Program-made: the position numbers and the translations under genes
Part shown: positions 18,230-42,144 of the stretch, one piece after another
Layout of the letters: the number at the start of each line of letters is the position of its first letter
How positions within the stretch are numbered: position 1 is the stretch's first letter
NCBI GenBank assembly: GCA_964532485.1
Contig: CAZHKE010000004.1
Coordinates: 15,501 to 79,500 of the forward strand
DNA from: an uncultured Bifidobacteriaceae bacterium
Lineage (GTDB): Bacteria; Actinomycetota; Acidimicrobiia; IMCC26256; PALSA-555
Length of the DNA: 64,000 nucleotides
Direction of reading: 5' to 3'
The notes under the pieces: model-generated
What the model saw: the letters and a program-made list of their open reading frames with translations, nothing else
Databases searched by the model: none
Told to the model about the DNA's origin: nothing

Positions 18230-19384
18230 ATGGAGGGCGGCGAGGCACTCGACCGGGCGGTCGAGGAGGCGATCGCAGGCGGCGGCCTGCCCGGCGAGGG
18301 CGAGATGTTCGACGTGGAGGCCGCGCCGCTCGGCCCGGTGATCGCTCTCGACGTGCTGTCGCGGCGGGTCCCGAAGGCGGAGCTGCACCTGCACCTCGAG
18401 GGCGCGATCCCGGCATCGACGCTGCGCCGCCTCGCGGCCGAGCACGACGTCGAGCTGCCCGGTTCCCCCGCACCCGGGTCGGCCTTCGACTACCGGGGCT
18501 TCGCCAAGTTCGCCGCCGACCTCGCCCGTGCCGGCGAGGTCCTCCGCGAGCCGTCCGACGTCACCGACGCCACGCTCGACGTGCTGGCGCGCGAAGTCGA
18601 CGCGGGGTGTCGCCACGTGGAGGTCATGGTGACCCTCGGCTTCCACGTGGAGCGCGGCTGGGACCCGTTCGACTTCCTGCGCGCGCTGGACGTGGCGTTC
18701 GAGTCCGCGCGTGACCGCTGGGATCTCAGCGGCGGCGTGATCGTCGAGTTCGACCGTGCCGCCGGGGGCGAGGTCGCCGCTCGCATCGCCGAGATCGCCG
18801 GCGACGCGGCCGACCGCGGCCTGCCGGTGGTGGGTGTCGGCAACAGCGGCGACCCGCTGTCGGTGCCGTTCGCCGCGCTCGCGCCGGGCTATGAGGCCGC
18901 ACGCGCCCGCGGCTTGCGCCTCTGCGGGCATGTCGACATGCCCGACGACGTCGAGCCGGCGCTCGACTTCGGCCTCGACCGGATCGACCACGGCTACAGC
19001 GCCTTGTTCGATCACGACCTGCTCGCCCGCGTCGTCGAGCAGCAGATCCCACTCACGTTGTGCCTCACGAGCAACGTCATGCAGATGCCCGGGATCTTTC
19101 CCGATTTCGATGCACACCCCGTCGTGGGGTTGGCGGCAGCAGGTGCTCGCTGCACGTTCCACACCGACGACCCGCCCTACTTCTTCACCGACATCGCCCA
19201 GGAATACCGAGTGGCCGCGCGCACCCTGGGTTGGGGCCCGGAGGATCTCGTCGCCGCGGCGCGCGCTTCACTCGAGGCTGCGTGGCTCCCGACCGACGTG
19301 CGCCCCGAACGCCTGCGAAGCTTCGACGCCGAGCTCGTCGCCTTGCTCGCCGACCCGCGATGGAGCGCCGGCGGACCGGGTTAG
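18230..19384 (+). CDS. Adenosine/AMP-deaminase-family metallohydrolase (divergent)
   Basis: 384 aa. KAELHLHLEGAI (metal-binding HxH), DRIDHG and FHTDDPPYF are present. The canonical HAGE segment is replaced by CGHVDMPDD. Confidence 0.75.
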   Translation: MEGGEALDRAVEEAIAGGGLPGEGEMFDVEAAPLGPVIALDVLSRRVPKAELHLHLEGAIPASTLRRLAAEHDVELPGSPAPGSAFDYRGFAKFAADLARAGEVLREPSDVTDATLDVLAREVDAGCRHVEVMVTLGFHVERGWDPFDFLRALDVAFESARDRWDLSGGVIVEFDRAAGGEVAARIAEIAGDAADRGLPVVGVGNSGDPLSVPFAALAPGYEAARARGLRLCGHVDMPDDVEPALDFGLDRIDHGYSALFDHDLLARVVEQQIPLTLCLTSNVMQMPGIFPDFDAHPVVGLAAAGARCTFHTDDPPYFFTDIAQEYRVAARTLGWGPEDLVAAARASLEAAWLPTDVRPERLRSFDAELVALLADPRWSAGGPG

Positions 19385-27512: not shown

Positions 27513-28505
27513 ATGCTCGACGAGCGTTGGGGTGAGGAAGAGGCCGAGCTCGTCGACGGCCTGCGCGCGCTGCTCACCAAGGAGTGCACGACGACGGACG
27601 TGCGAGCGGCAGAGCAGGCGGCCGACGGTCGCAGCGCTGCGCTCGAGGCGCGGCTCGAGGCGTTCGGGCTCGCGGAGCTCCCGCCGACGCCCGCGTTGCT
27701 CACGGCCGCGGCCTGGGAGCTCGGACGCGCCCTCGCGCCCGTTCCGTTCGTCGAGACTGCCGCGGTACGGGCGGTCCTCGCGATCGACGCGGCGTACGGG
27801 CTCGACGGGGTTGCACCAGCGAGCGCGGCGCACGCGGTGGTGGCCGATGCCGACGGTGTCGCGCTCGCGTCGGTCGAGGCAGCGGCGGCACGCCGCACGA
27901 CGGCGGGCGACCTCCTCGCGCCCGTGGGCAGGGCACTCGGCGAACGTCTCGGGGGGCCCGACGAGGCGGACCGCTTGCGTCGTCTTGTGCGCCTGCTCGC
28001 GTCCGCCCGCGTCGTCGGCGCCTCCGACGCGTTGCTCGCGCTCGGCGTCGAACACGTGAAGCACCGCGAGCAGTTCGGGCGTCCGGTGGGGGCGTTCCAG
28101 GCGGTCGCGCACAGGCTTGCCGATGCGGCCACGGCGGTCGACGGCACCGCGCTGCTGGTGCGCAAGACCGCGTGGGTCGCCGACGATGCGCAGCGCGGCG
28201 GGGGGGTGCCGCCACCGGTGTTCGCCACCATGGCGTGGGCCAAGGCCGTCGAGACCGGCCGGCACGTCGCGACTGCGGTGCACCAGTGCATGGGTGGCTA
28301 CGGCTTCGCGACCGAGTACGACTGCCAGCTGTTCACCCGCCGAATCCGTAGCTGGTCGATGCGGCTCGGCGATCCCGCCGCCGAGCTGGCAGAGCTCGCC
28401 CGGGTGCTGCTCGACCCGCCGCGGCGCGACGCGGTCATGCATCTCTGGCACCACGACCGGGGCGTGCCCGTCCCACGATGGTCGCGGGAGCTCGACTTGG
28501 CCTGA
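27513..28505 (+). CDS. Acyl-CoA dehydrogenase-like protein (second, shorter member of the pair; possible beta-type subunit)
   Basis: Track ORF 27363..28505 was trimmed to ATG 27513, 7 nt after the upstream stop. Motifs: REQFGRPVGAFQAVAHRLAD, HQCMGGYGFATEYDCQLFTRR. Confidence 0.8.
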   Translation: MLDERWGEEEAELVDGLRALLTKECTTTDVRAAEQAADGRSAALEARLEAFGLAELPPTPALLTAAAWELGRALAPVPFVETAAVRAVLAIDAAYGLDGVAPASAAHAVVADADGVALASVEAAAARRTTAGDLLAPVGRALGERLGGPDEADRLRRLVRLLASARVVGASDALLALGVEHVKHREQFGRPVGAFQAVAHRLADAATAVDGTALLVRKTAWVADDAQRGGGVPPPVFATMAWAKAVETGRHVATAVHQCMGGYGFATEYDCQLFTRRIRSWSMRLGDPAAELAELARVLLDPPRRDAVMHLWHHDRGVPVPRWSRELDLA

Positions 28506-28570
28506 CGGCATCCTCTTCGTCACCCTCAGCCGCGGGATCGCCGCGAGCTGTCCGCCACGCTGGCGCGGCG

Positions 28571-29824
28571 TCACGCGCTCGACGCACGTTGCCAGTCGGC
28601 CGCGGCCGCGCGCTGGTCGGGCGTGAGCTCGTCGATCTCCACGCCGAGCGTCGCGAGCTTCTCGCGGGCCACCGCGTCGTCGATCTCGGTCGGGAGCGGA
28701 TGCAGCCCCGGGCCCATCTCCGCGCCGTGGAGTGCAAGATGGCGAGCCGCCAGCACCTGGATCGAGAAGGTCAGGTCCATGATCTCGATCGGGTGCCCCT
28801 CGCCGGCCGACAGGTTCACGCACCGGCCGTCACCGACGAGCAGCACGGCGGGACCGTCCGTGAGCGCGTACTCGACCACGTGGGGCCGAACCTCCCGGAT
28901 CACGGTCGCGCCGGCGCGGAGGCCATCCACGTCGATCTCGTCGGACGGGCCGCCGGCGTTCGCGAGGACCACGCCCGGCTTGCAACGGCCGATCGCCCGC
29001 ATCGGAAGCGCCCGCCGGCAGCCCGTTGCCGTGATCACCCAGTCGGCGCGCTCGCAGGCATCGGAGACGGTCGCGATCTCGTGACCGTCATGATGGGCTT
29101 CGAGCGCTGCGACCGGGTCGACCTCGGCGACGGTGACGCGTGCGCCGAGGCCGCGAGCGACCCGTGCGAGACCGCGCCCGACCCAGCCGTAGCCCACGAT
29201 CAGCACGGCGGTGCCCGCGATCAGCAGGTTGGTCGTGTCCATGAGGGCGCTCAGCACCGACTGGCCGCTCCCGTACTTGTTGTCGAAGAGGTGCTTGCAA
29301 CGAGCGTCGTTTGCCGCGATGCACGGGACGCGAAGCGCGCCGTCGGACGCCATCGTGCGGAGCAGGCTGACCCCCGACGTCGTCTCCTCCGTCGCACCCC
29401 GTAGGTCGGCAAGTGCGTGTGAGTGCTCGAGGTGGGCGAGCCGGATGAGCTCGGCCATGTCGTCGATCACGACTTCCGGATGCCGCGCGAGCACCTCGGC
29501 GTAGTACTGCTGCTCGTCGTCCGGGGACGCGTCGCTACGAGCGAACACGGTCACGCCTCGCTCATCGAGCGCGGCCGCGACGTCATCGTTCGTCATTGCC
29601 GCGTTGCACGTGAGCACGACGTCGGCGCCGGCATCGGCGAGGACGCACGCGAGGAACGCGGTCTTGGGCTCGAGCGCGAGGACGACACCGACGAGCCGCC
29701 CGCGCAAGCTCGCGTCGTCGACGATTCGCTCGCGCACTCGTCGCAGCACCGGCGCATGTTCGGCTGCCCACTCGATGCGACGAGCACCGGGTCCGGCGAG
29801 GGTCGGATCACGGATGTCGCTCAT
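28571..29824 (-). CDS. S-adenosyl-L-homocysteine hydrolase-like protein, short (archaeal-type) form, with degenerate catalytic motifs
   Basis: 417 aa. The NAD fold GYGWVGRG and NDARCKHLFDNKYGSGQS are conserved. Other motifs have diverged: ALEPKTA (vs HLEAKTA), CNAAMTND (vs SNPGSTQD), GGPSDEID (vs GHDDREID). ATGA overlap with the upstream paralog at 29821-29824. Confidence 0.8.
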   Translation of the reverse strand: MSDIRDPTLAGPGARRIEWAAEHAPVLRRVRERIVDDASLRGRLVGVVLALEPKTAFLACVLADAGADVVLTCNAAMTNDDVAAALDERGVTVFARSDASPDDEQQYYAEVLARHPEVVIDDMAELIRLAHLEHSHALADLRGATEETTSGVSLLRTMASDGALRVPCIAANDARCKHLFDNKYGSGQSVLSALMDTTNLLIAGTAVLIVGYGWVGRGLARVARGLGARVTVAEVDPVAALEAHHDGHEIATVSDACERADWVITATGCRRALPMRAIGRCKPGVVLANAGGPSDEIDVDGLRAGATVIREVRPHVVEYALTDGPAVLLVGDGRCVNLSAGEGHPIEIMDLTFSIQVLAARHLALHGAEMGPGLHPLPTEIDDAVAREKLATLGVEIDELTPDQRAAAADWQRASSA

Positions 29825-31077
29825 CGGGTATCGACGGTCTCGTGGTCGTCGAGCTCGATGCCCAGGGTCGCAAGCTTCGTTCGCGCGATCGCGCGATCGA
29901 GATGGTCGGGCAGCGGTTGCACGCCGGCAGACAGGTCGTCGGCACCGGCGAGGTGGTGCACGGCCAGCGCCTGGACCGAGAACGACAGGTCCATGATCTC
30001 GACCGGGTGGCCGTCGGCGCCCGCGATGTTGACGAGCTGGCCCTCGCTCAGCACGTGGACGCGCCGCCCGTCGCGAAGGGTCAGCGTGGTCACCCCGGGC
30101 CGAGGCTCAGCCGATGACGTGGCTCCACGTCGGAGGGCTTCGACATCGATCTCGCGGTCGTCGTGGCCCGCATTCGCCAGCAGGACGCCGTCGGCGAGGA
30201 ACGGGAAGGCTGACGCGGGCAGCGCGTCGACGTCGCCGGTCGCGGTGATCACGAGGTCGGCGTCGGGGAGAGCATTGCGCAGACGGGCGACTCGGTGGCC
30301 CTCCATGTGGGCGACGAGCGCGCGTACCGGGTCGAGCTCGACCACAGTGACGCGCGCACCGAGCCCCTCGGCGTACTCGGCGAGGCCGCGACCGACCCAG
30401 CCGTAGCCGACCACGCACACCTCCTTGCCCCACGCGCTGGTGTTCGTGAGCCGAAGCACGGCCGCGAGCGCGGATTGGCCCGTCCCGAAGCGATTGTCGA
30501 AGAGGTGCTTGCACGAGGCGTCGTTCCCCGCGATCGCGGGGAACGGGAGACGACCGGCGGCTTCGAGGGCGCGCAGGCGGGCGACTCCGGTCGTCGTCTG
30601 CTCGGTCACGCCGCGTAGGCGTGTGACGAGGTCGGGCCGATGCTCGATCATCCGTGTCGTCAGCTCGGCACCGTCGTCGACGACGAGCTCGGGACGGGCA
30701 TCGGCCACCGCGAGCAGGTCGAGCTCGAACTCCTCCGGCGTAGCGCCGTGGATCGCGTGCACCTCGACCCCGCGGCGGACGAGGGCGGCGCACACCGAGT
30801 CCTGGGTCGATCCCGGATTGCTCCCGGCGGCGACGACGCGGGCGCCGGCCTCGGCGAGCAGAAGCGCGAGGTACGCGGTCTTTGCTTCGAGGTGCACGAC
30901 GACCGCGATGGTGCGCCCGCGCAGGGCGCCGTCGGCAAGGCGCTCGAGAGCGAGACGGTTGAGGACCGGGGAGTGGTCGGCGACCCAGTCGATGAGCTGC
31001 TCACCGCGGTCGGCGAGCGACGCGTCGGCGATTCGCGACCGATCTGTCGCGTCGTTCGCCGCGAAGCGCCCACTCAC
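29821..31077 (-). CDS. ahcY: S-adenosyl-L-homocysteine hydrolase family enzyme, short archaeal-type form (SAH or S-inosylhomocysteine hydrolase-like), motifs intact
   Basis: Track ORF 29821..31140 was trimmed to GTG 31077, which overlaps the upstream stop (GTGA). Motifs: VVHLEAKTAYL, GSNPGSTQD, EQTTTGV, NDASCKHLFDNRFGTGQS, GYGWVGRG, GHDDREID. Confidence 0.8.
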   Translation of the reverse strand: MSGRFAANDATDRSRIADASLADRGEQLIDWVADHSPVLNRLALERLADGALRGRTIAVVVHLEAKTAYLALLLAEAGARVVAAGSNPGSTQDSVCAALVRRGVEVHAIHGATPEEFELDLLAVADARPELVVDDGAELTTRMIEHRPDLVTRLRGVTEQTTTGVARLRALEAAGRLPFPAIAGNDASCKHLFDNRFGTGQSALAAVLRLTNTSAWGKEVCVVGYGWVGRGLAEYAEGLGARVTVVELDPVRALVAHMEGHRVARLRNALPDADLVITATGDVDALPASAFPFLADGVLLANAGHDDREIDVEALRRGATSSAEPRPGVTTLTLRDGRRVHVLSEGQLVNIAGADGHPVEIMDLSFSVQALAVHHLAGADDLSAGVQPLPDHLDRAIARTKLATLGIELDDHETVDTR

Positions 31078-32006
31078 GGGGACGCGGTCAAGCGGGCGAT
31101 GAGCGTCTCCACGAAGTGATCGTGGTCGAAGCCGGTGCACAGGTCGATATCGGCGGGTGCTCCGGTGGTGCCCCAGTGGTCGATCACGAGGGCGCCGCGG
31201 GTCAGCTCACCGAGGCACTCCACGTCGGCCGCGACGCGACGCCAGCTGGCATGGTCAGGTCGGAGCGCTGCAGCCATGGCCACCGGATCGGGGAGGTCCA
31301 TGGCGCCAGGGAGATGGTTCGACGACACGAACTCGAAGTAGCGGCGGGTCACGTCGGCGGCGAACTTCGCGACCGGGTCAGATGACGCGCGCAGACGATC
31401 GACATCGGCAGCGGTGACAACGGCATCGCGTCGCGAGACGTCCCAGCCGACGACGCGCAGCGGGAGTCCCGAGCGGAGCACGATCCGAGCCGCTTCCGCG
31501 TCGCACCAGAAGTTGTACTCCGCGGCGGGCGTGACGTTTCCGACTCCGTCGCCGGCGCCGCCCATGACCACGACCTGCCCGACGCGTCGGCAGGTGTCCG
31601 CGTCGACATCGATCGCGTGTGCGAGGTTGGTCAGCGGGCCGAGGGCGACGTAGGTCAGCGTCGATCCGTGTTCGCGAAAGAGCGCGAGCGTCGCGTCGAG
31701 CGCGGCATCGGGATGCTCGGCGCCGACGGGATCGAAGTCGTGGCCACCGAGGCCGTCGTGCCCGTGGACGCTCTCGGCGCGTTCGAAGCCCTCCGCAGCG
31801 AGGCTCTCGGATGCTCCGCGGTGCACCGGCACGTCGAGCCGGCCCGCGACGCTGAGCGTCTTCAGCGCGTTGCGTGTCGCCTGGTCGACGTCGACGTTGC
31901 CCGCGACGGTCGTGAGTGCGACAACTTCGGTTCCCGGGGTGCGCAGGGCCAGGAGGATCGCGACCGCGTCGTCGGCGCCCGGGTCGGTATCGACGAGCAG
32001 CTTCAC
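31074..32006 (-). CDS. Nucleoside hydrolase (inosine-uridine preferring, IUNH family), copy 1
   Basis: 310 aa. N-terminal Ca/ribose-binding motif KLLVDTDPGADDAVAILLAL, and GPLTNLA. GTG start at 32006. Confidence 0.9.
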   Translation of the reverse strand: MKLLVDTDPGADDAVAILLALRTPGTEVVALTTVAGNVDVDQATRNALKTLSVAGRLDVPVHRGASESLAAEGFERAESVHGHDGLGGHDFDPVGAEHPDAALDATLALFREHGSTLTYVALGPLTNLAHAIDVDADTCRRVGQVVVMGGAGDGVGNVTPAAEYNFWCDAEAARIVLRSGLPLRVVGWDVSRRDAVVTAADVDRLRASSDPVAKFAADVTRRYFEFVSSNHLPGAMDLPDPVAMAAALRPDHASWRRVAADVECLGELTRGALVIDHWGTTGAPADIDLCTGFDHDHFVETLIARLTASP

Positions 32007-32152
32007 GTGAGCATGCCGCCTGCCGCCTTGACCGATTGGGCCGTGATCGCGCCCGCCGCGCCGTGCGCCCCGAGCTCGAGTGCGATCGCGCGCCCCAGTC
32101 CCTGGCTCGCGCCAGTGACCGCGGCGACGAAGCCGTCGAGGTCGTGCTGCAC
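32003..32152 (-). pseudogene. 49-codon stub that looks like the N-terminal Rossmann segment of an SDR. Either a gene remnant or a tiny leader ORF.
   Basis: In-frame GTG at 32152 gives VQHDLDGFVAAVTGASQGLGRAIALELGAHGAAGAITAQSVKAAGGMLT, then stop. TGASxGxGxAxA is the SDR cofactor motif, but the ORF ends about 200 aa early. Its stop overlaps the GTG of the nucleoside hydrolase (GTGA at 32003-32006). Confidence 0.35.
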
Positions 32153-32185
32153 TGCCGGGATGCTACGGACTTGACCCCAATCATG

Positions 32186-32202
32186 CGACTCAGTAAGAGG
32201 AT
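32186..32202 (-). promoter_or_regulatory. Recurrent box, site G (ATCCTCTTACTGAGTCG on the minus strand), upstream of the nucleoside hydrolase / SAHH-like operon
   Basis: 12/17 identical to site C. Shares the ATCC prefix and the ACTGA-TCG core. It lies 33 nt before the GTG of the 49-codon stub. Confidence 0.4.
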
Positions 32203-32282
32203 TGATGCACGGGCTCCTCGTGCACTCGCGGCAGGGAGGTTGTCGACGTGGTGCTACCACCGCCGACGACCGGAGGTGATCG

Positions 32283-32801
32283 ATGAGCGATCCAGCCGGA
32301 TGGGCCGAGGCCTGGGAGGAAGCGCGGGCGAGCCTGGGCGAGGGCGGTGTGCCGATCGGTGCCGCGCTGGTCCGCACGAGCGACGGCGCGGTCCTCGCGC
32401 GCGGACGCAATCGGCGATGCCAGGCGGGCGGGCTCGCGTACCACGCCGAGATCGTCTGCCTCCACGACGCGGGGCTGTTGAAGCTCGCCGAGCTGCGCGA
32501 GACGACCCTGGTGAGCACCGCCGTCCCGTGCTGGATGTGCGCGGGCGCGGTGCTCCAGCACGGGATCCCGCGAGTCGTGGTGGGGATGGCTGCCGTCGAG
32601 GGGGAGCGACTCGGCAGCCATGAGCTCCTCGTCTCCCACGGGATCGAGGTGGTCGACCTCCAGCGGCCCGAGGTCCTCGAGGTGATGATGGAGCACTTCT
32701 CCGAGCACCCGGTCGACGGGCTCGAGGATCTCGGGACCGCGGCCGCGGGGGTCGACGTCGAAGCCATGATCGCCGAGCGCGGCGCGGAGCCGCAGCGTTG
32801 A
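32283..32801 (+). CDS. CMP/dCMP-type zinc deaminase (Fcy1 cytosine deaminase / guanine deaminase-like)
   Basis: 172 aa. GGVPIGAALV, zinc/catalytic motifs YHAEI and PCWMCAGA, HGIPRVVVG. Confidence 0.8.
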   Translation: MSDPAGWAEAWEEARASLGEGGVPIGAALVRTSDGAVLARGRNRRCQAGGLAYHAEIVCLHDAGLLKLAELRETTLVSTAVPCWMCAGAVLQHGIPRVVVGMAAVEGERLGSHELLVSHGIEVVDLQRPEVLEVMMEHFSEHPVDGLEDLGTAAAGVDVEAMIAERGAEPQR

Positions 32802-32832
32802 CCGACCTGTTCGAGGAGCTTCGCCGCTGCGA

Positions 32833-33840
32833 TCAGGGTCCCGTCGCCGCGGCGACTGCCGCAGCGACGATGCGGTCCACCGACGGGAGCGCCTGGAGCT
32901 CGGCCGCACCCTCGGGCAACGGCACCTGCGCGCACGCGACCCGCCGGGGCGGCGTGCGCAGGGTGCCCGGCTCGACCCCCTCGAGGACCCGCATGCAGAT
33001 CTCGCCCGCGGCGCCACAGCTCACGTGGTCCTCGTCGAGCACGACCAGCGCGCCGGTCTTGGCGACGGAGGCGAGGACCGCGTCGAGATCGAAGGGCTCG
33101 AGCGTGCGCGGATCGATGATCTCGGCCGACACGCCGTTGGCTGCGACCTGCTCAGCCGCCGTGACCGCGAGATCGTTCATGTGGCCGATCGCCACGATCG
33201 TGACATCGCCACCCTCGCGCCGGACCACCGCCTTGCCGAACGGGACCGGGCTGTGGTCGACCGAACCCGTCGAGAACATGAAGAGCTTGTGCGCGAGGAA
33301 CACCACGACGTCGTCGTCGCGGATCGCGGTGCGCATCAACCCGTACGCGTCCGACGCTGTCGACGGAAACGCGATCTTCAGCCCCGGGGTGTGCATCCAG
33401 TAGCCGGTCGGCACCTGGGAGTGGTTCGCGCCCACTCCCAGGTAGCCGCCGACGAGCATCTTCACGACCATCGGCACGCGGACATCGCCGGCTCCGCCGT
33501 GCATGTGGCGCCACCGCGGGGCACGCACGATCTCCTCCATCGCGACGTACGAGAAGTCTGCGATCTGGATGTCGGCGATCGGGCGCATGCCCGCCATCGC
33601 CGCGCCGAGCGCGGCGCCGACGATCGCGGTCTCGGCGAGCGGCGAGTCCCGCACGCGGCCGGGGAACTCGGTCGAGAGCCCGGCATACTGCTGGAGCAGC
33701 CCGCCGTAGGGGTCCTCCACGTTCTCGCCCCACAGCACGACGTCCTGGTCGGCGGCCATCTCGTCGCGAATGGCCGCACGGATCGCGTCGAAGAAGCCCA
33801 CCTCGGCCACGGTCACCGCGTTCTTGTCGCGTACAGCCAT
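32833..33840 (-). CDS. 2-oxoacid (pyruvate/acetoin/branched-chain) dehydrogenase E1 component, beta subunit
   Basis: 335 aa. FGRVRDSPLAETAIVGAALGAAMAGMRPIADIQIADF; transketolase-like pyrimidine-binding and C-terminal domains. Confidence 0.9.
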   Translation of the reverse strand: MAVRDKNAVTVAEVGFFDAIRAAIRDEMAADQDVVLWGENVEDPYGGLLQQYAGLSTEFPGRVRDSPLAETAIVGAALGAAMAGMRPIADIQIADFSYVAMEEIVRAPRWRHMHGGAGDVRVPMVVKMLVGGYLGVGANHSQVPTGYWMHTPGLKIAFPSTASDAYGLMRTAIRDDDVVVFLAHKLFMFSTGSVDHSPVPFGKAVVRREGGDVTIVAIGHMNDLAVTAAEQVAANGVSAEIIDPRTLEPFDLDAVLASVAKTGALVVLDEDHVSCGAAGEICMRVLEGVEPGTLRTPPRRVACAQVPLPEGAAELQALPSVDRIVAAAVAAATGP

Positions 33841-37234: not shown

Positions 37235-38422
37235 CTACGCCGTGCCGAAGAGGGGCTCGTCGCTGGAGCTCAGGCCGGCGGTCGGCAGGCCGTCGGGGAA
37301 CTCTCGGCGTACGCGTTGCAGCACCTCGGTGGCGACCTCGAGATGCCAGTGGCGCGTCGTCTCGTAGAACTCGCGGGCATCGTCGCTGAGCTTGGGCTGA
37401 CCGTGCAACGGCTTGTCGCTGATGGACAGCAGCGTGGCACTCGGGATGCGGTAGCGGAAGCCGTTTGCCGCGATCGTCGCCGACTCCATGTCGATCGCGA
37501 TGCTGCGCGAGACCTGGATCTCGTCGGCGATCCGCGTGGGGTTCAGCTCCCAGTTCCGGTCGCCGGTCGTGTACACCGTGCCCATCCGGTACCGCAGCTG
37601 GCGTGCATCGAGCGCCGCGATGATCAGCTCGTTCAAGAAGTGGTTCGCCGTGAGCGGCACACTCGTCGGGAGCACGTCGTCGAGCACGCGGTCGCCACGC
37701 ATGTACGCGGTCGCGAGCACGAGATCACCGACGTCCTGGTGGTTGCGAAGACCCGCACAGTGACCGACCATCACCATGGCGTCCGGGCGGAGCACCGCGA
37801 GGTGGTCGGTCATGGTCTTGGCGTTCGAGGGCCCGACGCCGATGTTCACGAGCGTGATGCCCGCGTGCCCGTCGATGCAGTGGTGGTACGCGGGCATCTG
37901 GATGCCGGGGCGTGCCGGGCGCTGCGCGTCGGGATAGAGCTCGAGGAACGCCTCGACGTGCATCTCGTAGTTGGTGAACAGCACGTAGCGCTGGAAGTGC
38001 TCGGCTGCAGTGCCCGTGTAGTGCTCGAGGCGGTCGATCGACAGCGCGGCGCGCTCGGCGCGGAACAGGAACAGCTTCTTGCGGCGTAGGTCCCAGGCGG
38101 TCTCGTCGAGGACCTCGAGCAGGCGCGCGTCATCGAGTGCCGTGACCGGTCGCGACGCCCGCGCCGTGATCCGGGCCTTCGACAGCGCGAGCTTGCGCAG
38201 CTCGCGCTCGAGGTACCAGCGGATCGCTGCGGGGCGTGCGAACTCGCCGGTGAGCACCGGGTTGTGCTGCGACCAGGGCCGGTCGACCTCGAGCTCCGCG
38301 TAGCTCCCGGCCGCGTAGATCTGCTCGAGCTGATCGCAGAGTCGCTCGACGCCCATCGCGATTGCCTCGTCACCGACTTCGGCGGCGAAGTCGATCGCGA
38401 GCGACTCGCTCCGTCTAGCCAA
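37235..38422 (-). CDS. amn: AMP nucleosidase
   Basis: The catalytic region reads HYTGTAAEHFQRYVLFTNYEMHVEAF, GVGPSNAKTMTDHLAVLRPDAMVMVGHCAGL, and SIAIDMESATIAANG (PNP/UDP-type fold). The start is uncertain. The in-frame TTG at 38422 would overlap the upstream stop by 8 nt. The N-terminal domain is shorter than I remember for E. coli Amn. Confidence 0.75.
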   Translation of the reverse strand: MARRSESLAIDFAAEVGDEAIAMGVERLCDQLEQIYAAGSYAELEVDRPWSQHNPVLTGEFARPAAIRWYLERELRKLALSKARITARASRPVTALDDARLLEVLDETAWDLRRKKLFLFRAERAALSIDRLEHYTGTAAEHFQRYVLFTNYEMHVEAFLELYPDAQRPARPGIQMPAYHHCIDGHAGITLVNIGVGPSNAKTMTDHLAVLRPDAMVMVGHCAGLRNHQDVGDLVLATAYMRGDRVLDDVLPTSVPLTANHFLNELIIAALDARQLRYRMGTVYTTGDRNWELNPTRIADEIQVSRSIAIDMESATIAANGFRYRIPSATLLSISDKPLHGQPKLSDDAREFYETTRHWHLEVATEVLQRVRREFPDGLPTAGLSSSDEPLFGTA

Positions 38423-40280
38423 CGCGCTCGAGAGAGAGGTTGTGGCGCGCCGAGCTCCGCAGCTTCGTGGACGTCCGGCCCGTCGTGTCGGCGTCGAGCT
38501 GGCGTGGCTCGCCGGCCCCGGTGAGCCGATAGCGCGCCAGGGGCCGCAGCCGGGCGAAACCCACATCCACTTCGCCGTTGGCGGCCGGGCCCGGCACGAT
38601 CGTCGCCTGCAGGCCGTCGCCGGTGGCGCGCGCCGACGTGACGATCACCTCTGGGTACGACGCGCGCTCGAGCTCCGGGGTCTCGTCGCGGGCGGGTACG
38701 TGCCGGTGGGCCGCGAGGAGACCCTGCTGGGTGTTCTGGAGTGCCATGAAGGTGAACGCCATCGAGAGGATCGAGCCCGGGCCCGGTCGGTCGCCGTCCG
38801 GTGTGAGCATCTGCTCGAGCGTGCGACGCAGGCCGGCGGCCGACTCGTCGTCACCGAGCTCCGTCGCGTAGAGCAGCGCAAGCGAGTAGGGCTGCGCCGG
38901 GTTCCAGCCGTAGCTGGTGTCGAACGTGTCGATCTTCGACAGTGCGAGTGTGATGCGACCGTCGACGTCGGGCTCGCTCATCCGCGACTTCACCTGCCGC
39001 TCGTAGCTGGCCTCGACGTGGCCGCGGCCGAAGGGCGACATCATCACTCCGGTTCCGGCCTGACCGCTCACGCCGACGATGAGCGAGTCGGTCGGGTGCA
39101 CGAACCCGGCGATGTTGCGGCACGTGTCGATATGGCCGTCCGGGGACACGAAGTATCGAGCGAATGACTCCGAGAAGCGCTCGATCGCCCAGCTGTGGTC
39201 GGTGCCGTGGACGAGATCGCCGAGCTGGATCGAGCGCAACGAGAACGTCTGGCATGGCGGCCACAGCCATCCGGGAATGCAGCTGATCGCCCCGTGCACG
39301 CTCGCCGCGTGCTGCGCAGCGAGGTTGTCGACGATCTCCGCGTGGCTCCACGAGTAGGTACGCGTCTTGTCGCTGACCGAGTAGCCGCCCGGCTGGTCGT
39401 AGCGCTCGTCACCGCTCATCGCCTCGTACATCGAGGTCACGTCGGCCGCGTAGCCCGAGTACATGACGTTCTCGTGGCGGAAGGGGTCGCCGTCGATCCG
39501 AAACGAGCTGACGTTCTGGAACCGTGTGTAGCGCCAGACCCTGTAGTCGCGGCAGCGCTCGGCGAGGTTCCCGAGGGCGGTCGTCGCTGCCTCGCGGTAC
39601 GCGGGCATCGAGAGGTGCTGCACCAGGTACATCGCCCACGCGGACAGCACGATCTGGTAGCGCAGCGCCGAGTCGACGTGCTTGGGGTCGTCGAAGACGC
39701 CCCAGTCAGTCGGGTCGGCGTGGCCGAAGCGGAGGAAGTACCGCAGGTAGGCCTCGGCGTACGGGTCGATCGGCGCGACGGCGCCGTGCTCGACCGGCGC
39801 GTAGGCGGGCGTGGCCCCGTGCGCCGGCGCCTCGGCGACCGCGGCCTTGACCGCGGCGAGGCGTCGCTGCTTCGCCCGGAAGTTGAGCTGCTCGACGAGG
39901 ACGCCGGCGGCCAGGCCCGCGATGCCGCCGACGGGGATGCTCCACCACGCTCCGCCGGTCGCGGCGTTCAGCGCGGCCGCGGGCGCGAGGAACGCGAGGG
40001 GGAGAAACCCGAGGCGCAGGATGCGGTTGAACAACGCGAACAGATCGACCAGCACGAAGAGGAACACGGCGAAGATCGCGATGCCGAGCGCGACGTCGCC
40101 CGCGACGATCTGGCCGAGTCCCGGAACGATCAGGGAGAGCAAGCCGGTCCACGCGGAGTCGGAGCCGTCGAGGCTCACGCCGACGATGCCCGCGATCAGA
40201 CAGGCCGCGGCGGCGAGGCCGAGGGCGCGGCCGACCCCGCGCCGGCCGGTCAGCGGTATCACATGGGCCGGATCGGGCAC
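38415..40280 (-). CDS. Membrane-anchored protein with a large C-terminal domain resembling linalool dehydratase/isomerase (LDI) family
   Basis: Track ORF 38415..40922 was trimmed to GTG 40280 (GAGGGG 4 nt upstream). N-terminal TM helices include LGLAAAACLIAGIVGVSL and IAIFAVFLFVLVDLFALF. The following segments match my memory of Castellaniella LDI: YRVWRYT, HENVMYSGYAADVTSMYEAMSGDERYD, AISCIPGWLWPPCQTF (two Cys 9 residues apart, CxP...C), and LVHGTDH. Confidence 0.7.
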   Translation of the reverse strand: MPDPAHVIPLTGRRGVGRALGLAAAACLIAGIVGVSLDGSDSAWTGLLSLIVPGLGQIVAGDVALGIAIFAVFLFVLVDLFALFNRILRLGFLPLAFLAPAAALNAATGGAWWSIPVGGIAGLAAGVLVEQLNFRAKQRRLAAVKAAVAEAPAHGATPAYAPVEHGAVAPIDPYAEAYLRYFLRFGHADPTDWGVFDDPKHVDSALRYQIVLSAWAMYLVQHLSMPAYREAATTALGNLAERCRDYRVWRYTRFQNVSSFRIDGDPFRHENVMYSGYAADVTSMYEAMSGDERYDQPGGYSVSDKTRTYSWSHAEIVDNLAAQHAASVHGAISCIPGWLWPPCQTFSLRSIQLGDLVHGTDHSWAIERFSESFARYFVSPDGHIDTCRNIAGFVHPTDSLIVGVSGQAGTGVMMSPFGRGHVEASYERQVKSRMSEPDVDGRITLALSKIDTFDTSYGWNPAQPYSLALLYATELGDDESAAGLRRTLEQMLTPDGDRPGPGSILSMAFTFMALQNTQQGLLAAHRHVPARDETPELERASYPEVIVTSARATGDGLQATIVPGPAANGEVDVGFARLRPLARYRLTGAGEPRQLDADTTGRTSTKLRSSARHNLSLERVG

Positions 40281-40290
40281 GTTCCCCTCA

Positions 40291-40326
40291 CCTTCGATAC
40301 CTGCGCGTCCCTTCGATACCTGCGCG
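40291..40326. repeat. Perfect 17-bp tandem direct repeat CCTTCGATACCTGCGCG (x2, 19-bp period) in the divergent promoter region
   Basis: Copies lie at 40291..40307 and 40310..40326. They sit between GTG 40280 (LDI-like/amn operon, minus strand) and ATG 40377 (hypothetical/cytosine deaminase/upp operon, plus strand). Confidence 0.85.
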
Positions 40327-40376
40327 AAGCCGCAAGCCTTGCGCGCCGCCGCAACGATACGGCATCCTGCGGCACC

Positions 40377-40985
40377 ATGTCCGTTCCTTCGAGCCCCCCC
40401 TCGGGACTGCCCGAAGACGCCTGGGTGCTGCTGCACGAGCTGCGTCTGCGCGGGTTGATGCCCGAGTTCGACGACGGGCTCGCCGACACCCTGTGCTCGG
40501 GTGGCCTGGCCCAGCGCAAGGGCGCGTTCTTGGCGCTCACTCCCGAGGGGCGCGCCGCGCACGCGACGTGGGCGCGTCTCGAGCCTGGGACCGAGGGTGA
40601 GGTGGCTGCGCAGCGGGCGTACGCCCAGTTCCTGCCGCTCAACCGCGCGCTGCTCCAGGTCAGCACCGACTGGCAGGTACGGCCCGGCAACGTCCCGAAC
40701 GATCACCGCGACGCGCCGTACGACTGGGAGGTGATCGACCGGTTCGTCGCACTCGACGAGCGAGCCGGTCCGGTCGTGCGGCGCCTCGGCACGGCTGTCG
40801 ATCGCTTCGGCGGCTACCGGCCGCGGCTGCGCGAAGCCGTGCGAAAGGTCCAGGACGGCCAGCACGAGTGGCTCCTGTCGCCGCGCTGCGACTCGTACCA
40901 CACGGTCTGGATGCAGATGCACGAGGATCTCTTGCTCGCGCTCGGCCTCGACCGTGCGACCGAGGAACAGGCGCAGAGCTCATAG
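40377..40985 (+). CDS. Hypothetical protein (202 aa). Possibly a regulator; function unknown.
   Basis: Only the last 202 codons of track ORF 39195..40985 are kept, from ATG 40377. The rest is antisense to the LDI-like gene. Sequence: MSVPSSPPSGLPEDAWVLLHELRLRGLMPEF...WEVIDRFVALDERAGPVVRRLG. Codon usage looks genuine. I recognised no family. Confidence 0.6.
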   Translation: MSVPSSPPSGLPEDAWVLLHELRLRGLMPEFDDGLADTLCSGGLAQRKGAFLALTPEGRAAHATWARLEPGTEGEVAAQRAYAQFLPLNRALLQVSTDWQVRPGNVPNDHRDAPYDWEVIDRFVALDERAGPVVRRLGTAVDRFGGYRPRLREAVRKVQDGQHEWLLSPRCDSYHTVWMQMHEDLLLALGLDRATEEQAQSS

Positions 40986-41507
40986 GTGCGTGCCACGATG
41001 CGGGATGTGAGTACCGGCCCCGCCGACGAGCACTCGGACGACCTGCGCTTCATGGCCGCGGCGATCGACCAGGCCCGCATCGGACGCGATGAGGGCGGGG
41101 TGCCGATCGGCGCGGTGCTCGTCGCCGACGGGAAGATCCTCGGCGCGGGCCGCAACCGGAGGATGCAGCTCGGCAGCGCAACTCGCCATGGCGAGACCGA
41201 CGCGCTCGAGAACGCGGGTCGACTGCCCGCCACCGTGTACCGGCGAGCGACGATGTACACGACGCTGTCGCCCTGCTACATGTGCAGCGGTGCCATCTTG
41301 CTGTTCGGCATCCCGCGCGTCGTCGTCGGTGAGAACGATACGTTCATGGGAGCCGAGGGCATACTGCGCGAGCACGGCGTCGAGGTCGTCGTCCGCCGGT
41401 CACAAGCGTGCGTCGACCTGATGGCCGCGTTCATCGCTTCGCATCCCCACGTCTGGCACGAGGACATCGGCGAACCGTATGAGGCGACGTCGACGGACCT
41501 CCGATGA
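40986..41507 (+). CDS. Cytosine deaminase, yeast Fcy1-type (CMP/dCMP deaminase fold)
   Basis: 173 aa. Near-colinear with my memory of S. cerevisiae Fcy1: EGGVPIGAVLV, GSATRHGETDALENAGRL, TMYTTLSPCYMCSGAILLFGIPRVVVGEN, WHEDIGE. The GTG start immediately follows the upstream TAG. ATG 40998 is an alternative. Confidence 0.85.
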   Translation: MRATMRDVSTGPADEHSDDLRFMAAAIDQARIGRDEGGVPIGAVLVADGKILGAGRNRRMQLGSATRHGETDALENAGRLPATVYRRATMYTTLSPCYMCSGAILLFGIPRVVVGENDTFMGAEGILREHGVEVVVRRSQACVDLMAAFIASHPHVWHEDIGEPYEATSTDLR

Positions 41508-41517
41508 GGTCCGTGAC

Positions 41518-42144
41518 GTGCCGCTGACGCTGGTCGATCACCCGCTCGTGCAACACAAGCTGTCGGTGCTGCGCGACCGCGAGACGGACACGTTGACCTT
41601 TCGTCAGCTCGTCGGCGAGCTCGCCGCGTTGCTGACCTATGAGGCGACCCGCGCGCTCGACCTCGAGCCGATCGAGGTCGAGACGCCCCTCGAGCGTGCC
41701 CAGCAGTGGAAGGTCAGTGGCAAGAAGCTTGCCGTCGTGCCGATCTTTCGCGCCGGCCTCGGGATGCTCGACGCAGTCCTCGATCTCATCCCGGTGGCGC
41801 GTGTGGGCTTCGTCGGGTTGTACCGCAACGAGGAGACCCTCGAGCCAGTCGAGTACTACGCCAAGTTCCCGACCGACCTCGCGGAGCGCGACGCGTTGGT
41901 CCTCGATCCGATGCTCGCGACGGGTGGGTCGGCCTCGGCGGCCTGCTCGCTGCTCACGAGGAAGGGTGTTCGGCGGATGACGGTCGTCTGCCTGGTCGCG
42001 GCACCCGAAGGCCTCGCTCGGTTCTCCGCGGACCATCCCAGCGTGCAGATCGTCGCCGCCGCGCGCGACCGTGAGCTGAACGAGCTCGGCTACATCCTGC
42101 CCGGGCTCGGCGACGCGGGTGACAGGTTGTTCGGCACCCGCTGA
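41518..42144 (+). CDS. upp: Uracil phosphoribosyltransferase
   Basis: VDHPLVQHKLSVLRD, PRPP motif LVLDPMLATGGSA, C-terminal YILPGLGDAGDRLFGT. GTG 41518 is preferred. The track start 41479 would overlap the deaminase gene by 29 nt. Confidence 0.9.
   Translation: MPLTLVDHPLVQHKLSVLRDRETDTLTFRQLVGELAALLTYEATRALDLEPIEVETPLERAQQWKVSGKKLAVVPIFRAGLGMLDAVLDLIPVARVGFVGLYRNEETLEPVEYYAKFPTDLAERDALVLDPMLATGGSASAACSLLTRKGVRRMTVVCLVAAPEGLARFSADHPSVQIVAAARDRELNELGYILPGLGDAGDRLFGTR

What the first reader, a model, noticed from the sequence alone, without database searches (positions are those of the whole stretch)
28571..32152. Tandem, translationally coupled short SAH-hydrolase-like paralogs (one with degenerate catalytic motifs) behind a nucleoside hydrolase
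The operon order on the minus strand is: 49-codon stub, nucleoside hydrolase, SAHH-like 2, SAHH-like 1. Every junction is a 4-nt overlap: GTGA at 32003, GTGA at 31074, ATGA at 29821.

Paralog 2 keeps the family motifs: HLEAKTA, SNPGSTQD, EQTTTGV, NDASCKHLFDN, GYGWVGRG, GHDDREID.

Paralog 1 keeps the NAD fold but has ALEPKTA, CNAAMTND and GGPSDEID. It therefore loses the conserved His of two motifs and the SNP.STQ segment.

This looks like a catalytic plus pseudo-catalytic hetero-oligomer. The short HLEAKTA-type form is the archaeal type. In methanogens, a member of that type has been reported to hydrolyse S-inosyl-homocysteine. With the adjacent nucleoside hydrolase, plus ribokinase and a deaminase-family protein elsewhere in the window, one can propose a route from SAH (or an analogue) to nucleoside, then to base plus ribose.
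Basis: partly seen in the sequence, partly recalled or inferred. Interest (0 to 1): 0.75.

Follow-up and report, generated by a model that had tools for sequence, protein, structure and literature searches.

The report
Paired SAH-hydrolase genes, one histidine-less
Two back-to-back S-adenosylhomocysteine-hydrolase genes are real, and the odd copy that lacks two catalytic histidines belongs to a large, conserved, unstudied bacterial group that is usually encoded beside (sometimes fused to) a normal-looking partner, which suggests a two-subunit enzyme of a kind not described for this otherwise homo-oligomeric family.

Summary
On the minus strand, a 49-codon stub, a nucleoside hydrolase, SAHH-like par2 (29821-31077) and par1 (28571-29824) follow each other with 4-nt overlaps.

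Par2 keeps the HxExK (inosine-type) catalytic set. Par1 lacks the equivalents of human His55 and His301 and the SNPxSTQ loop.

"Degenerate" is misleading, however. All 120 closest relatives of par1 carry the same replacements. They also keep every ribose-, base- and NAD-contacting residue (Lys186, Asp190, Asn191, Asp131, His353 and others).

Eleven independent loci have the same order, canonical partner then His-less copy. One 800-aa protein cluster (8 sequences) fuses the two. Other His-less relatives are fused to, or followed by, a TRZ/ATZ-family amidohydrolase, the family that holds SAH/MTA deaminases. Transporters are often adjacent.

Best reading (confidence 0.5): a conserved, probably hetero-oligomeric SAHH-family module working in salvage of 5'-thio purine nucleosides (SAH to S-inosylhomocysteine to inosine to base). 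The His-less subunit binds nucleoside and NAD but cannot perform the canonical 5' chemistry.

Main rival: a separate enzyme with a different 5' substituent.

I found no published description. I rate it a new variant of a known kind, with interest about 0.6. No ribokinase was found.

The parts
28571..29824 (-). par1: His-less SAHH-family protein (417 aa). It keeps the NAD site and the ribose/base contacts. It lacks the equivalents of His55, the SNPxSTQ loop, Gly132 and the His301-Phe302 gate.
   Evidence: AF2 model has pLDDT 93.2. Foldseek TM-score is 0.92-0.95 to T. maritima and P. furiosus SAHH.
29821..31077 (-). par2: HxExK-type SAHH/SIHH-like protein (418 aa) with both histidines, the catalytic Lys/Asp/Asn and the SNPGSTQD loop. 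It is atypical in three ways: Gln at the Glu156 position, a His-Asp gate, and no C-terminal LTxxQxxFxxxW helix.
31074..32006 (-). Inosine-uridine-type nucleoside hydrolase (310 aa). Its stop overlaps the par2 start by 4 nt.
   Evidence: PF01156 at E=1e-85. RihA/RihC/UriH-like but below the NCBIfam cut-offs. The same neighbour occurs in L083 and L085/86.
32003..32152 (-). 49-codon remnant of a short-chain dehydrogenase N-terminus (..VAAVTGASQGLGRAIALELGAHGA..). It overlaps the hydrolase start by 4 nt.
   Evidence: adh_short at E=6e-5 and FabG-like at E=8e-8, covering profile residues 1-44 only. Sequence shown. Absent from the syntenic locus L085.
32283..32801 (+). Divergently transcribed CDA-fold (dCMP_cyt_deam_1) deaminase, 172 aa. 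The arrangement is conserved in the Acidimicrobiia locus L085/86.

Best explanation
par2 and par1 are the two products of an old duplication inside the HxExK (inosine-type) branch of short SAH hydrolases. They are inherited together as a translationally coupled module.

I propose they assemble into a hetero-oligomer, probably an alpha2-beta2 version of the usual SAHH tetramer.
- par2 (alpha) carries out the classical NAD-dependent cycle on S-inosyl- or S-adenosyl-homocysteine: 3'-oxidation, C4' deprotonation, thiol elimination, water addition and re-reduction.
- par1 (beta) still binds NAD and a 6-oxopurine nucleoside. Its 5'-side pocket is rebuilt (no His55, no His301 gate, altered 79-85 loop, Arg or Met at position 132). 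It therefore cannot perform the canonical 5' elimination and hydration. It would act as a structural, regulatory or ligand-holding subunit.

The module works in salvage or catabolism of 5'-thio purine nucleosides rather than as a stand-alone housekeeping enzyme. The released inosine or adenosine goes to the co-transcribed nucleoside hydrolase. In other genomes a TRZ/ATZ-family deaminase and a transporter sit in the same operon.

Shown here: gene structure, residue pattern, conservation, co-occurrence and fusions.
Inferred: complex formation, substrates and the role of beta.
For: 1. Residue pattern. In 120/120 relatives of par1, every contact to ribose, base and NAD is invariant, while H55, the 79-85 loop, G132, H301 and F302 are replaced by a different conserved set. 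All 120 partners keep the canonical set.
2. Both histidines are needed for all characterised chemistry of the family. H56A and H299A abolish AgmF activity (PMC8599513). The His55 equivalent protonates the leaving sulfur and binds the 5'-OH (PMC13406329).
3. The tandem order, partner then variant, occurs in 11 independent loci from Actinomycetota and Dormibacterota. Spacings range from a 13-nt overlap to an 11-nt gap.
4. In a neighbour-joining tree the two clades are sisters inside the HxExK branch, and the L024 pair is basal in both. Pair distances co-vary (r=0.88), and the variant diverges only 1.24 times faster than the partner.
5. A natural fusion of partner type and variant type exists as an 800-aa protein, in 8 sequences from ENA, NCBI and Logan.
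6. Pathway context. A TRZ/ATZ amidohydrolase follows the pair in L084, L088 and L090. It is in the same operon in L211, and it is fused to His-less relatives in P0280 and P0346. Nucleoside hydrolase, adenosine deaminase, a phosphorylase, and Bmp, CUT1 or ECF transporters lie nearby.
7. The HxExK motif is linked to a preference for S-inosylhomocysteine (PMC10978960).
Against: - No direct evidence for a complex. The tools here cannot model multimers, and gene adjacency or fusion also fits two sequential or parallel enzymes.
- Strict conservation of Lys186, Asp190, Asn191 and Asp131 in the His-less clade fits an active enzyme better than a passive subunit.
- His-less relatives occur without an adjacent partner (L003 and L004 behind an ECF transporter; long VLEPKTA forms; the Rarobacter fusion). 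A partner-type gene also occurs alone (L009).
- The window's own par2 is atypical: Glu156 is replaced by Gln, the C-terminal helix is missing, and the gate is His-Asp.
- The amidohydrolases score below every NCBIfam cut-off, so their substrate is not established.
- The window itself has no TRZ/ATZ gene next to the pair. It has only a CDA-fold deaminase there and an adenosine-deaminase-family gene about 10 kb away.
Confidence: 0.5

Rival explanations
1. Two separate enzymes. The His-less clade is a neofunctionalised SAHH-family enzyme that forms its own oligomer. It acts on a purine nucleoside with a different 5' group, for example 5'-methylthioinosine or 5'-deoxyinosine, which are the other products of MTA/SAH/5'-dA deaminases. 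Alternatively it performs only part of the redox cycle. It would sit next to the SIH hydrolase because both serve the same salvage pathway.
For: - The redox and ribose-binding residues are invariant, and a new conserved 5'-pocket set replaces the old one: Pro/Val at position 55, Met/Val at 83-84, His at 85 or 134, Arg at 132, Glu at 83 in the long forms.
- Singletons lie behind ECF transporters.
- Fusions to an amidohydrolase occur without a canonical partner.
- 63 of 121 domains among the top 50%-identity representatives lack both histidines. This is a large radiation.
Against: - Both histidines are essential in every characterised member, including the dehydratase AgmF.
- The strict partner-then-variant coupling and the partner-variant fusion are more typical of subunits.
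- No candidate replacement residues are conserved in par1's own subclade, which has Ala50, Met123 and Asn79.
Confidence: 0.3
2. The pair is simply this lineage's housekeeping SAH hydrolase for the methyl cycle, and the neighbouring salvage genes are coincidental.
For: - Both proteins pass the NCBIfam adenosylhomocysteinase cut-off.
- No other SAHH gene lies in the 64-kb window.
- In L090 the pair sits next to glycine-cleavage (one-carbon) genes.
Against: - Related taxa (Gaiellaceae, Thermoleophilia) also carry ordinary non-HxExK (DDGAD-type) short SAHHs (L036, L069, L082).
- The module is found in LacI-regulated operons with transporters and beside nucleoside hydrolases, phosphorylases and deaminases.
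- I could not search the whole genome, so this remains open.
Confidence: 0.15
3. par1 is a decaying duplicate on its way to becoming a pseudogene.
For: It has lost two catalytic histidines. The variant clade evolves slightly faster than the partner.
Against: - The ORF is intact, with GC3 of 0.87.
- Identity is 57-74% across classes and phyla, with the same substitutions in 120/120 relatives.
- The AF2 model is confident.
- The divergence ratio is only 1.24.
Confidence: 0.02

Closest known systems
HxExK-type S-inosyl-L-homocysteine / SAH hydrolases (T. maritima TM0172, PDB 3X2E/5TOV; P. furiosus 7R37; M. maripaludis 7R3A; M. jannaschii SIHH)
   Same: - Short form without the 40-residue insert.
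- HxExK base-recognition motif in par2, and ExK kept in par1.
- 42-46% identity and TM-scores of 0.92-0.95.
- Association with an SAH-deaminase-family gene in several genomes, as in the Thermotoga and Methanocaldococcus route.
   Different: - The known enzymes are homotetramers from a single gene.
- Here a second, His-less paralog is always co-encoded.
- The partner's gate is His-His or His-Asp instead of His-Phe.
AHCYL1/IRBIT and AHCYL2 (eukaryotic inactive AHCY paralogs)
   Same: A paralog with the SAHH fold that has lost residues needed for catalysis. From my own knowledge, it is reported to associate with active AHCY.
   Different: - Independent origin.
- No IRBIT-type N-terminal regulatory domain.
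- Bacterial, operon-encoded and translationally coupled.
- The pattern of lost residues differs.
Prozyme systems (trypanosomatid AdoMetDC, deoxyhypusine synthase, PRMT1)
   Same: A catalytically impaired paralog forms a hetero-oligomer with the active paralog of a normally homo-oligomeric enzyme (PMC3663545, PMC5201418, seen).
   Different: - Different folds, and eukaryotic.
- Activation by the dead paralog is demonstrated there and only hypothesised here.
- Here the 'dead' site keeps most of its ligand-binding residues.
AgmF (angustmycin dehydratase), a non-canonical SAHH-family enzyme
   Same: An SAHH-fold, NAD self-recycling enzyme that does not hydrolyse SAH. It shows that the family can take on new substrates.
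   Different: AgmF keeps both histidines and needs them. par1 lacks both.

Membership tests
S-adenosyl-L-homocysteine hydrolase (Pfam PF05221/PF00670; NCBIfam NF004005) | Two-domain SAHH fold with a Rossmann NAD domain (GxGxxG) and a family profile score above the cut-off | tested here: met
   Both proteins score 499 and 512 bits against a cut-off of 275. Pfam E-values are 1e-34 to 1e-39. The par1 model has TM 0.92-0.95 to solved SAHHs.
S-adenosyl-L-homocysteine hydrolase (Pfam PF05221/PF00670; NCBIfam NF004005) | Redox and ribose residues: Lys186, Asp190, Asn191, Asp131, Glu156, Thr157-159 (human numbering) | tested here: met
   All are present in par1. In par2 all are present except that Glu156 is Gln.
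S-adenosyl-L-homocysteine hydrolase (Pfam PF05221/PF00670; NCBIfam NF004005) | His55 (proton donor to the leaving sulfur; 5'-OH ligand) and the His301 of the GHF gate | tested here: not met
   par1 has Ala50 and Gly292, so the feature is not met. par2 has His62 and His305, so it is met, but the gate Phe is Asp. Because of this I do not file par1 as an SAH hydrolase.
S-adenosyl-L-homocysteine hydrolase (Pfam PF05221/PF00670; NCBIfam NF004005) | [quoted passage not shown] | not testable with these tools
   Needs an enzyme assay.
S-inosyl-L-homocysteine hydrolase type (HxExK) | H-x-E-x-K signature in the substrate domain, short C-terminus, no 40-residue insert | tested here: met
   par2 has HLEAK. 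par1 has ALEPK, so ExK is kept and His is lost. Motif meaning is from PMC10978960. Substrate preference itself was not tested.
Pseudoenzyme-partner ('prozyme') hetero-oligomer | Loss of essential catalytic residues in one paralog | tested here: met
   Both histidines are lost in par1 and in 120/120 relatives. Their essentiality is shown.
Pseudoenzyme-partner ('prozyme') hetero-oligomer | Relaxed constraint on the remaining active-site residues | tested here: not met
   The remaining ligand contacts are invariant in 120/120 relatives.
Pseudoenzyme-partner ('prozyme') hetero-oligomer | Physical complex between the active and inactive paralog, with an effect on activity | not testable with these tools
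   Indirect support only: 11 tandem loci, translational coupling, and an 800-aa natural fusion.
AHCYL/IRBIT | N-terminal IRBIT regulatory domain preceding the AHCY-like domain | tested here: not met
   par1 starts at the SAHH core; residue 2 aligns to profile position 5.

The most novel reading that the evidence does not exclude
The double-His-less SAHH-like proteins are a large, unrecognised enzyme or subunit class, all currently annotated 'adenosylhomocysteinase'. The class includes par1, the long VLEPKTA forms, and the fusions to amidohydrolase or to a canonical partner. It would have its own function: either an obligate non-hydrolytic subunit that makes a hetero-oligomeric SIH/SAH hydrolase, or an enzyme that handles a second deaminated 5'-substituted nucleoside such as 5'-methylthioinosine. 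In the second case the pair or fusion would be a bifunctional salvage machine.
Probability: 0.35. Interest if true: 0.8.

Novelty: new variant of a known kind. Interest (0 to 1): 0.62.

Why it matters
SAH hydrolase is among the most conserved and best-studied enzymes. A comprehensive 2026 review lists only homo-oligomers and treats the His-His-Asp-Lys machinery as universal.

A widespread bacterial clade lacks both histidines but keeps everything else. It accounts for 63 of 121 aligned domains among the 150 best-scoring 50%-identity cluster representatives, out of 1,148 representatives at E<=1e-30. It is co-encoded or fused with a canonical partner, with deaminases and with transporters.

If the proposal holds, it would have three consequences:
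- thousands of 'adenosylhomocysteinase' annotations are wrong or incomplete;
- bacteria would have a prozyme-like or bifunctional architecture in this family;
- the deaminate-then-cleave SAH route, known from Thermotoga and methanogens, would extend to soil Actinomycetota and Dormibacterota.

The proposal can be tested directly with two recombinant proteins.

Tried and rejected
It returned mostly ordinary short SAHHs. Only L003, L004, L009 and L024 were useful.
- The metagenome scan for the PVEPKTA codon pattern gave 120 stretches, of which only 3 were real SAHH loci. All 3 were tandem pairs.
- The promoter and terminator scan of 28300-32900 found nothing. It is uninformative for a genome with about 70% GC.
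- Looking up the 100%-identical par2 protein did not return the 112-kb NCBI contig. The source genome therefore could not be searched for a second ahcY, pfs, luxS or mtaD.
- A link to queuosine salvage was considered, because of the QueT S-component upstream of the singletons, QueA in L088, and the fact that QueK is a nucleoside hydrolase. The transporter paper does not mention SAHH-like genes. I left this as an unexplained lead.
- A missing C-terminal tail in par2 looked at first like evidence for subunit complementarity. However, 117 of 120 partners have the tail, so it is a peculiarity of this organism.
- Ribokinase: no PfkB motif or Pfam hit in the ORFs I checked.
- Five literature searches found no bacterial heteromeric or His-less SAHH.


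Full report
**Observation**

The minus strand between 28571 and 32152 carries four consecutive ORFs joined by 4-nt start/stop overlaps:
- a 49-codon stub (32003-32152);
- an inosine-uridine-type nucleoside hydrolase (31074-32006; PF01156, E=1e-85);
- par2 (29821-31077, 418 aa);
- par1 (28571-29824, 417 aa).

Independent gene calls on two other assemblies of the same sequence give the same gene boundaries for par1, and L001, the one that holds par2 whole, also for par2.

par1 and par2 are 50% identical. Both score above the NCBIfam adenosylhomocysteinase cut-off. Both match the short SAHHs of Thermotoga maritima, Pyrococcus furiosus and Methanococcus maripaludis at E=1e-93 to 1e-110.

An AlphaFold2 model of par1 is confident (pLDDT 93.2, pTM 0.88). 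It superposes on those structures with TM-scores of 0.92-0.95.

**Residue mapping**

I numbered residues on human AHCY, using a sequence I confirmed to be identical to PDB 1LI4.

par2 has His62 (H55), the HLEAK signature, SNPGSTQD, Asp135 (D131), Lys190 (K186), Asp194, Asn195, His305 (H301) and His357 (H353).

par1 has Ala50 in place of H55. It has a one-residue deletion and CNA-AMTND in place of the 79-86 loop, Met123 in place of G132, and Gly292-Pro293 in place of the His-Phe gate.

par1 nevertheless keeps Glu52, Lys54 and Thr55 (the ExK base contacts), Asp122, Glu147, Thr148/149, Asn172, Lys177, Asp181, Asn182, Asn337, Gly343, His344, Met349, Phe353 and the NAD GxGxxG motif.

Two details need amending:
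- par2's 'EQTTTGV' has Gln at the Glu156 position, where 119 of 120 relatives have Glu.
- The stub is the first 44 or so residues of a short-chain dehydrogenase. It is a gene remnant and is absent from the syntenic locus L085.

**par1 is not a degenerate one-off**

The 120 best database relatives of par1 are 57-74% identical to it. All of them carry the same class of replacements:
- Pro (112) or Ala (8) at position 55;
- the one-residue deletion, with a Q/P-G-A/V-M-V-H loop;
- Arg (112) or Met (8) at position 132;
- Ser at position 159;
- Gly/Ala then Ile/Val/Pro at positions 301-302.

Every ribose, base and NAD contact listed above is invariant in all 120.

The 120 best relatives of par2 (67-77% identical) keep the canonical set in 120/120. 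Their gate is His-His (114) or His-Asp (6) rather than His-Phe.

So the change is confined to the pocket around the 5' substituent, and that pocket has been rebuilt rather than abandoned.

**The two types travel together**

I recovered the genomic context of variant-type genes by exact protein look-up, a genome scan and a metagenome pattern scan. This gave 11 independent loci in which a partner-type gene immediately precedes a variant-type gene: the window, L083, L084, L085/86, L088, L089, L090, L024, L129, L166 and L178. Where genes were called (L083, L084, L085/86, L088, L089, L090) the spacing ranges from a 13-nt overlap to an 11-nt gap.

In a neighbour-joining tree the variant and partner clades are sisters, nested in the HxExK branch that also holds the Thermotoga, Firmicutes and euryarchaeal enzymes. 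The most divergent pair (L024) is basal in both clades (no bootstrap support was computed).

Across ten pairs the two distance matrices correlate (r=0.88), and the variant diverges only 1.24 times faster than its partner.

A profile search of 1.84 billion cluster representatives found an 800-aa protein whose N-terminal half is partner-type (57% to par2) and whose C-terminal half is variant-type (43% to par1). Its cluster has 8 members from ENA, NCBI and Logan assemblies, six of them exactly 800 aa.

Such a fusion is classical evidence that two proteins act together physically.

**Pathway context**

A 433-447-aa Amidohydro_1 protein recurs with the module.
- It directly follows the pair in L084, L088 and L090. 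There it belongs to the TRZ/ATZ group that contains MTA/SAH and 5'-deoxyadenosine deaminases. All hits are below the curated cut-offs, so only the family is established.
- In L211 it sits in one operon with the fused protein. The operon reads: divergent LacI regulator, the fusion, a CUT1-type ABC transporter, then the amidohydrolase.
- It is fused to His-less SAHH-like domains in Rarobacter incanus (WP_211344965.1, 998 aa) and in a 10-member 889-aa cluster.

Other recurrent neighbours are the nucleoside hydrolase (window, L083, L085/86), an adenosine deaminase, a uridine/purine phosphorylase-like gene, and Bmp nucleoside ABC transporters (L088, L090).

The window itself is syntenic with an Acidimicrobiia MAG (GCA_041394025.1, L086). 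The shared genes are E1 alpha/beta, the divergent CDA-fold deaminase, the nucleoside hydrolase and the pair, plus an SDR, an alpha/beta hydrolase, and a second CDA-fold deaminase with uracil phosphoribosyltransferase.

An adenosine-deaminase-family gene lies at 18230-19384. I found no ribokinase.

**What the literature says**

- The HxExK motif marks enzymes that prefer S-inosylhomocysteine. These work downstream of an SAH deaminase in M. jannaschii and T. maritima (PMC10978960; PMC13406329).
- The His55 equivalent protonates the leaving sulfur and binds the 5'-OH. His301 is the gate that closes on the 5' side.
- In AgmF, an SAHH-family dehydratase that does not accept SAH, H56A and H299A still abolish activity (PMC8599513).
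- A comprehensive 2026 review lists only homotetramers and homodimers, and never mentions a heterotetramer.
- Five full-text searches found no bacterial His-less or heteromeric SAHH. The library does not cover most subscription journals, so this absence is not proof.

**Interpretation**

The best-supported reading is a conserved two-subunit module.
- par2-type proteins are the catalytic SIH/SAH hydrolase.
- par1-type proteins bind NAD and a 6-oxopurine nucleoside but cannot carry out the canonical elimination and hydration at C5'.
- The two probably form a hetero-oligomer.
- The module serves salvage or catabolism of 5'-thio purine nucleosides, with a deaminase upstream and a nucleoside hydrolase or phosphorylase downstream.

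I give this a confidence of 0.5. The complex, the substrates and the role of the His-less subunit are all inferred.

The main rival (0.3) is that the His-less clade is an enzyme in its own right, with a different 5' substituent. Three observations favour it:
- the strict conservation of the redox residues;
- singletons placed directly behind an ECF transporter with a QueT-family S component (L003, L004);
- amidohydrolase fusions that lack a canonical partner.

The long His-less forms even carry new conserved polar residues in the pocket, Glu at position 83 and His at position 134. These could be relocated catalytic groups. par1's own subclade has none of them.

A housekeeping role for the pair (0.15) cannot be excluded without the whole genome. 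However, related taxa also carry ordinary non-HxExK short SAHHs, and the module sits in regulated uptake operons.

Decay of par1 is effectively excluded.

**Scale and novelty**

The profile search found 1,148 50%-identity cluster representatives at E<=1e-30. From its 150 best-scoring representatives, 121 domains cover both histidine positions. Of these:
- 63 lack both histidines;
- 54 of those 63 keep Lys186;
- 48 of those 63 keep the ExK signature.

Members that carry a name are annotated 'adenosylhomocysteinase'.

This is a new variant of a known kind. The fold and the partner enzyme are familiar. The conserved His-less partner, its coupling or fusion to a canonical subunit, and its link to TRZ/ATZ amidohydrolases have not, to my knowledge, been described.

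Interest is about 0.6. The pattern would surprise a specialist and can be tested directly. Everything about the mechanism still rests on sequence inference, and the window's own par2 copy has three atypical features (Gln at position 156, a His-Asp gate, and a missing C-terminal helix).

Noticed in passing
window 32003-32152 (-): The 49-codon 'stub' is the N-terminal Rossmann beginning of a short-chain dehydrogenase (VAAVTGASQGLGRAIALELGAHGA). It then diverges and stops, overlapping the hydrolase start by 4 nt. It is probably a remnant of a deleted SDR gene. The syntenic Acidimicrobiia locus has only a 53-nt intergenic gap there.
   Followed up: partly
window 29821-29880 (-), C-terminus of par2: par2 ends ...LGIELDDHETVDTR and lacks the LTxxQxxFxxxW C-terminal helix present in 117 of 120 partner-family proteins. 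It also has Gln at the Glu156 position (119/120 have Glu) and a His-Asp gate (6/120). This copy may be kinetically unusual.
   Followed up: partly
L003:961-5568 and L004:5102-9744: In a Rubrobacteraceae MAG and an Actinomycetota MAG, a His-less SAHH-like gene (PIEAKTA, DDRAGL, GG/A-V-D) stands alone, with no canonical partner on the contig. It lies directly downstream of an ECF transporter (EcfAA', EcfT, and an S component of the QueT family, PF06177, E=4e-18). The imported substrate is unknown.
   Followed up: partly
P0271, P0273, P0276, P0293, P0304 and about 40 more representatives: There is a large group of 490-680-aa His-less SAHH-like proteins. They carry VLEPKTA, Glu at position 83, His at position 134, Asn at position 353, and a VAGGVDxE[VI] gate. 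Their N-terminal extension of 130-290 aa has no Pfam match.
   Followed up: partly
L213:10001-12997 (Rarobacter incanus, WP_211344965.1) and the P0346 cluster: These are single polypeptides that fuse a His-less SAHH-like domain to a C-terminal Amidohydro_1 domain (998 and 889 aa). In Rarobacter a Cupin_5 gene and amino-acid ABC transporters follow.
   Followed up: partly
L211:6728-14896: An operon reads: divergent LacI regulator, then the 800-aa partner+variant fusion, then a sugar-type ABC transporter (SBP_bac_1 and two permeases), then Amidohydro_1. It looks like an inducible uptake and catabolism unit for an unidentified nucleoside-like compound.
   Followed up: no
P0261 (Saccharopolyspora spp., WP_358390522.1, 824 aa) and P0243 (827 aa): These are other tandem double-SAHH fusions from a different branch (HLTKQTG type). 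In P0261 the second half is strongly degenerate (Lys186 to Gly, Asp190 to Ser). This looks like an independent case of an active plus a dead SAHH domain.
   Followed up: no
partner family: 19 of 120 partner-type proteins have Asn instead of the His353 equivalent (GGDGNP). The conserved gate is GHH[DE]RE rather than GHF.
   Followed up: no
window 37235-38566 (-), 38415-40922 (-), 40986-42144 (+): Three nearby features. A 443-aa protein has a PNP_UDP_1 phosphorylase domain only in its C-terminal half. An 835-aa protein has a linalool dehydratase/isomerase-like domain. A second CDA-fold deaminase overlaps a uracil phosphoribosyltransferase gene, which suggests pyrimidine salvage.
   Followed up: no
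No PfkB signature appears in any frame, and no PfkB Pfam hit appears in the roughly 35 ORFs I scanned. An adenosine-deaminase-family gene is present at 18230-19384 (+).
   Followed up: partly
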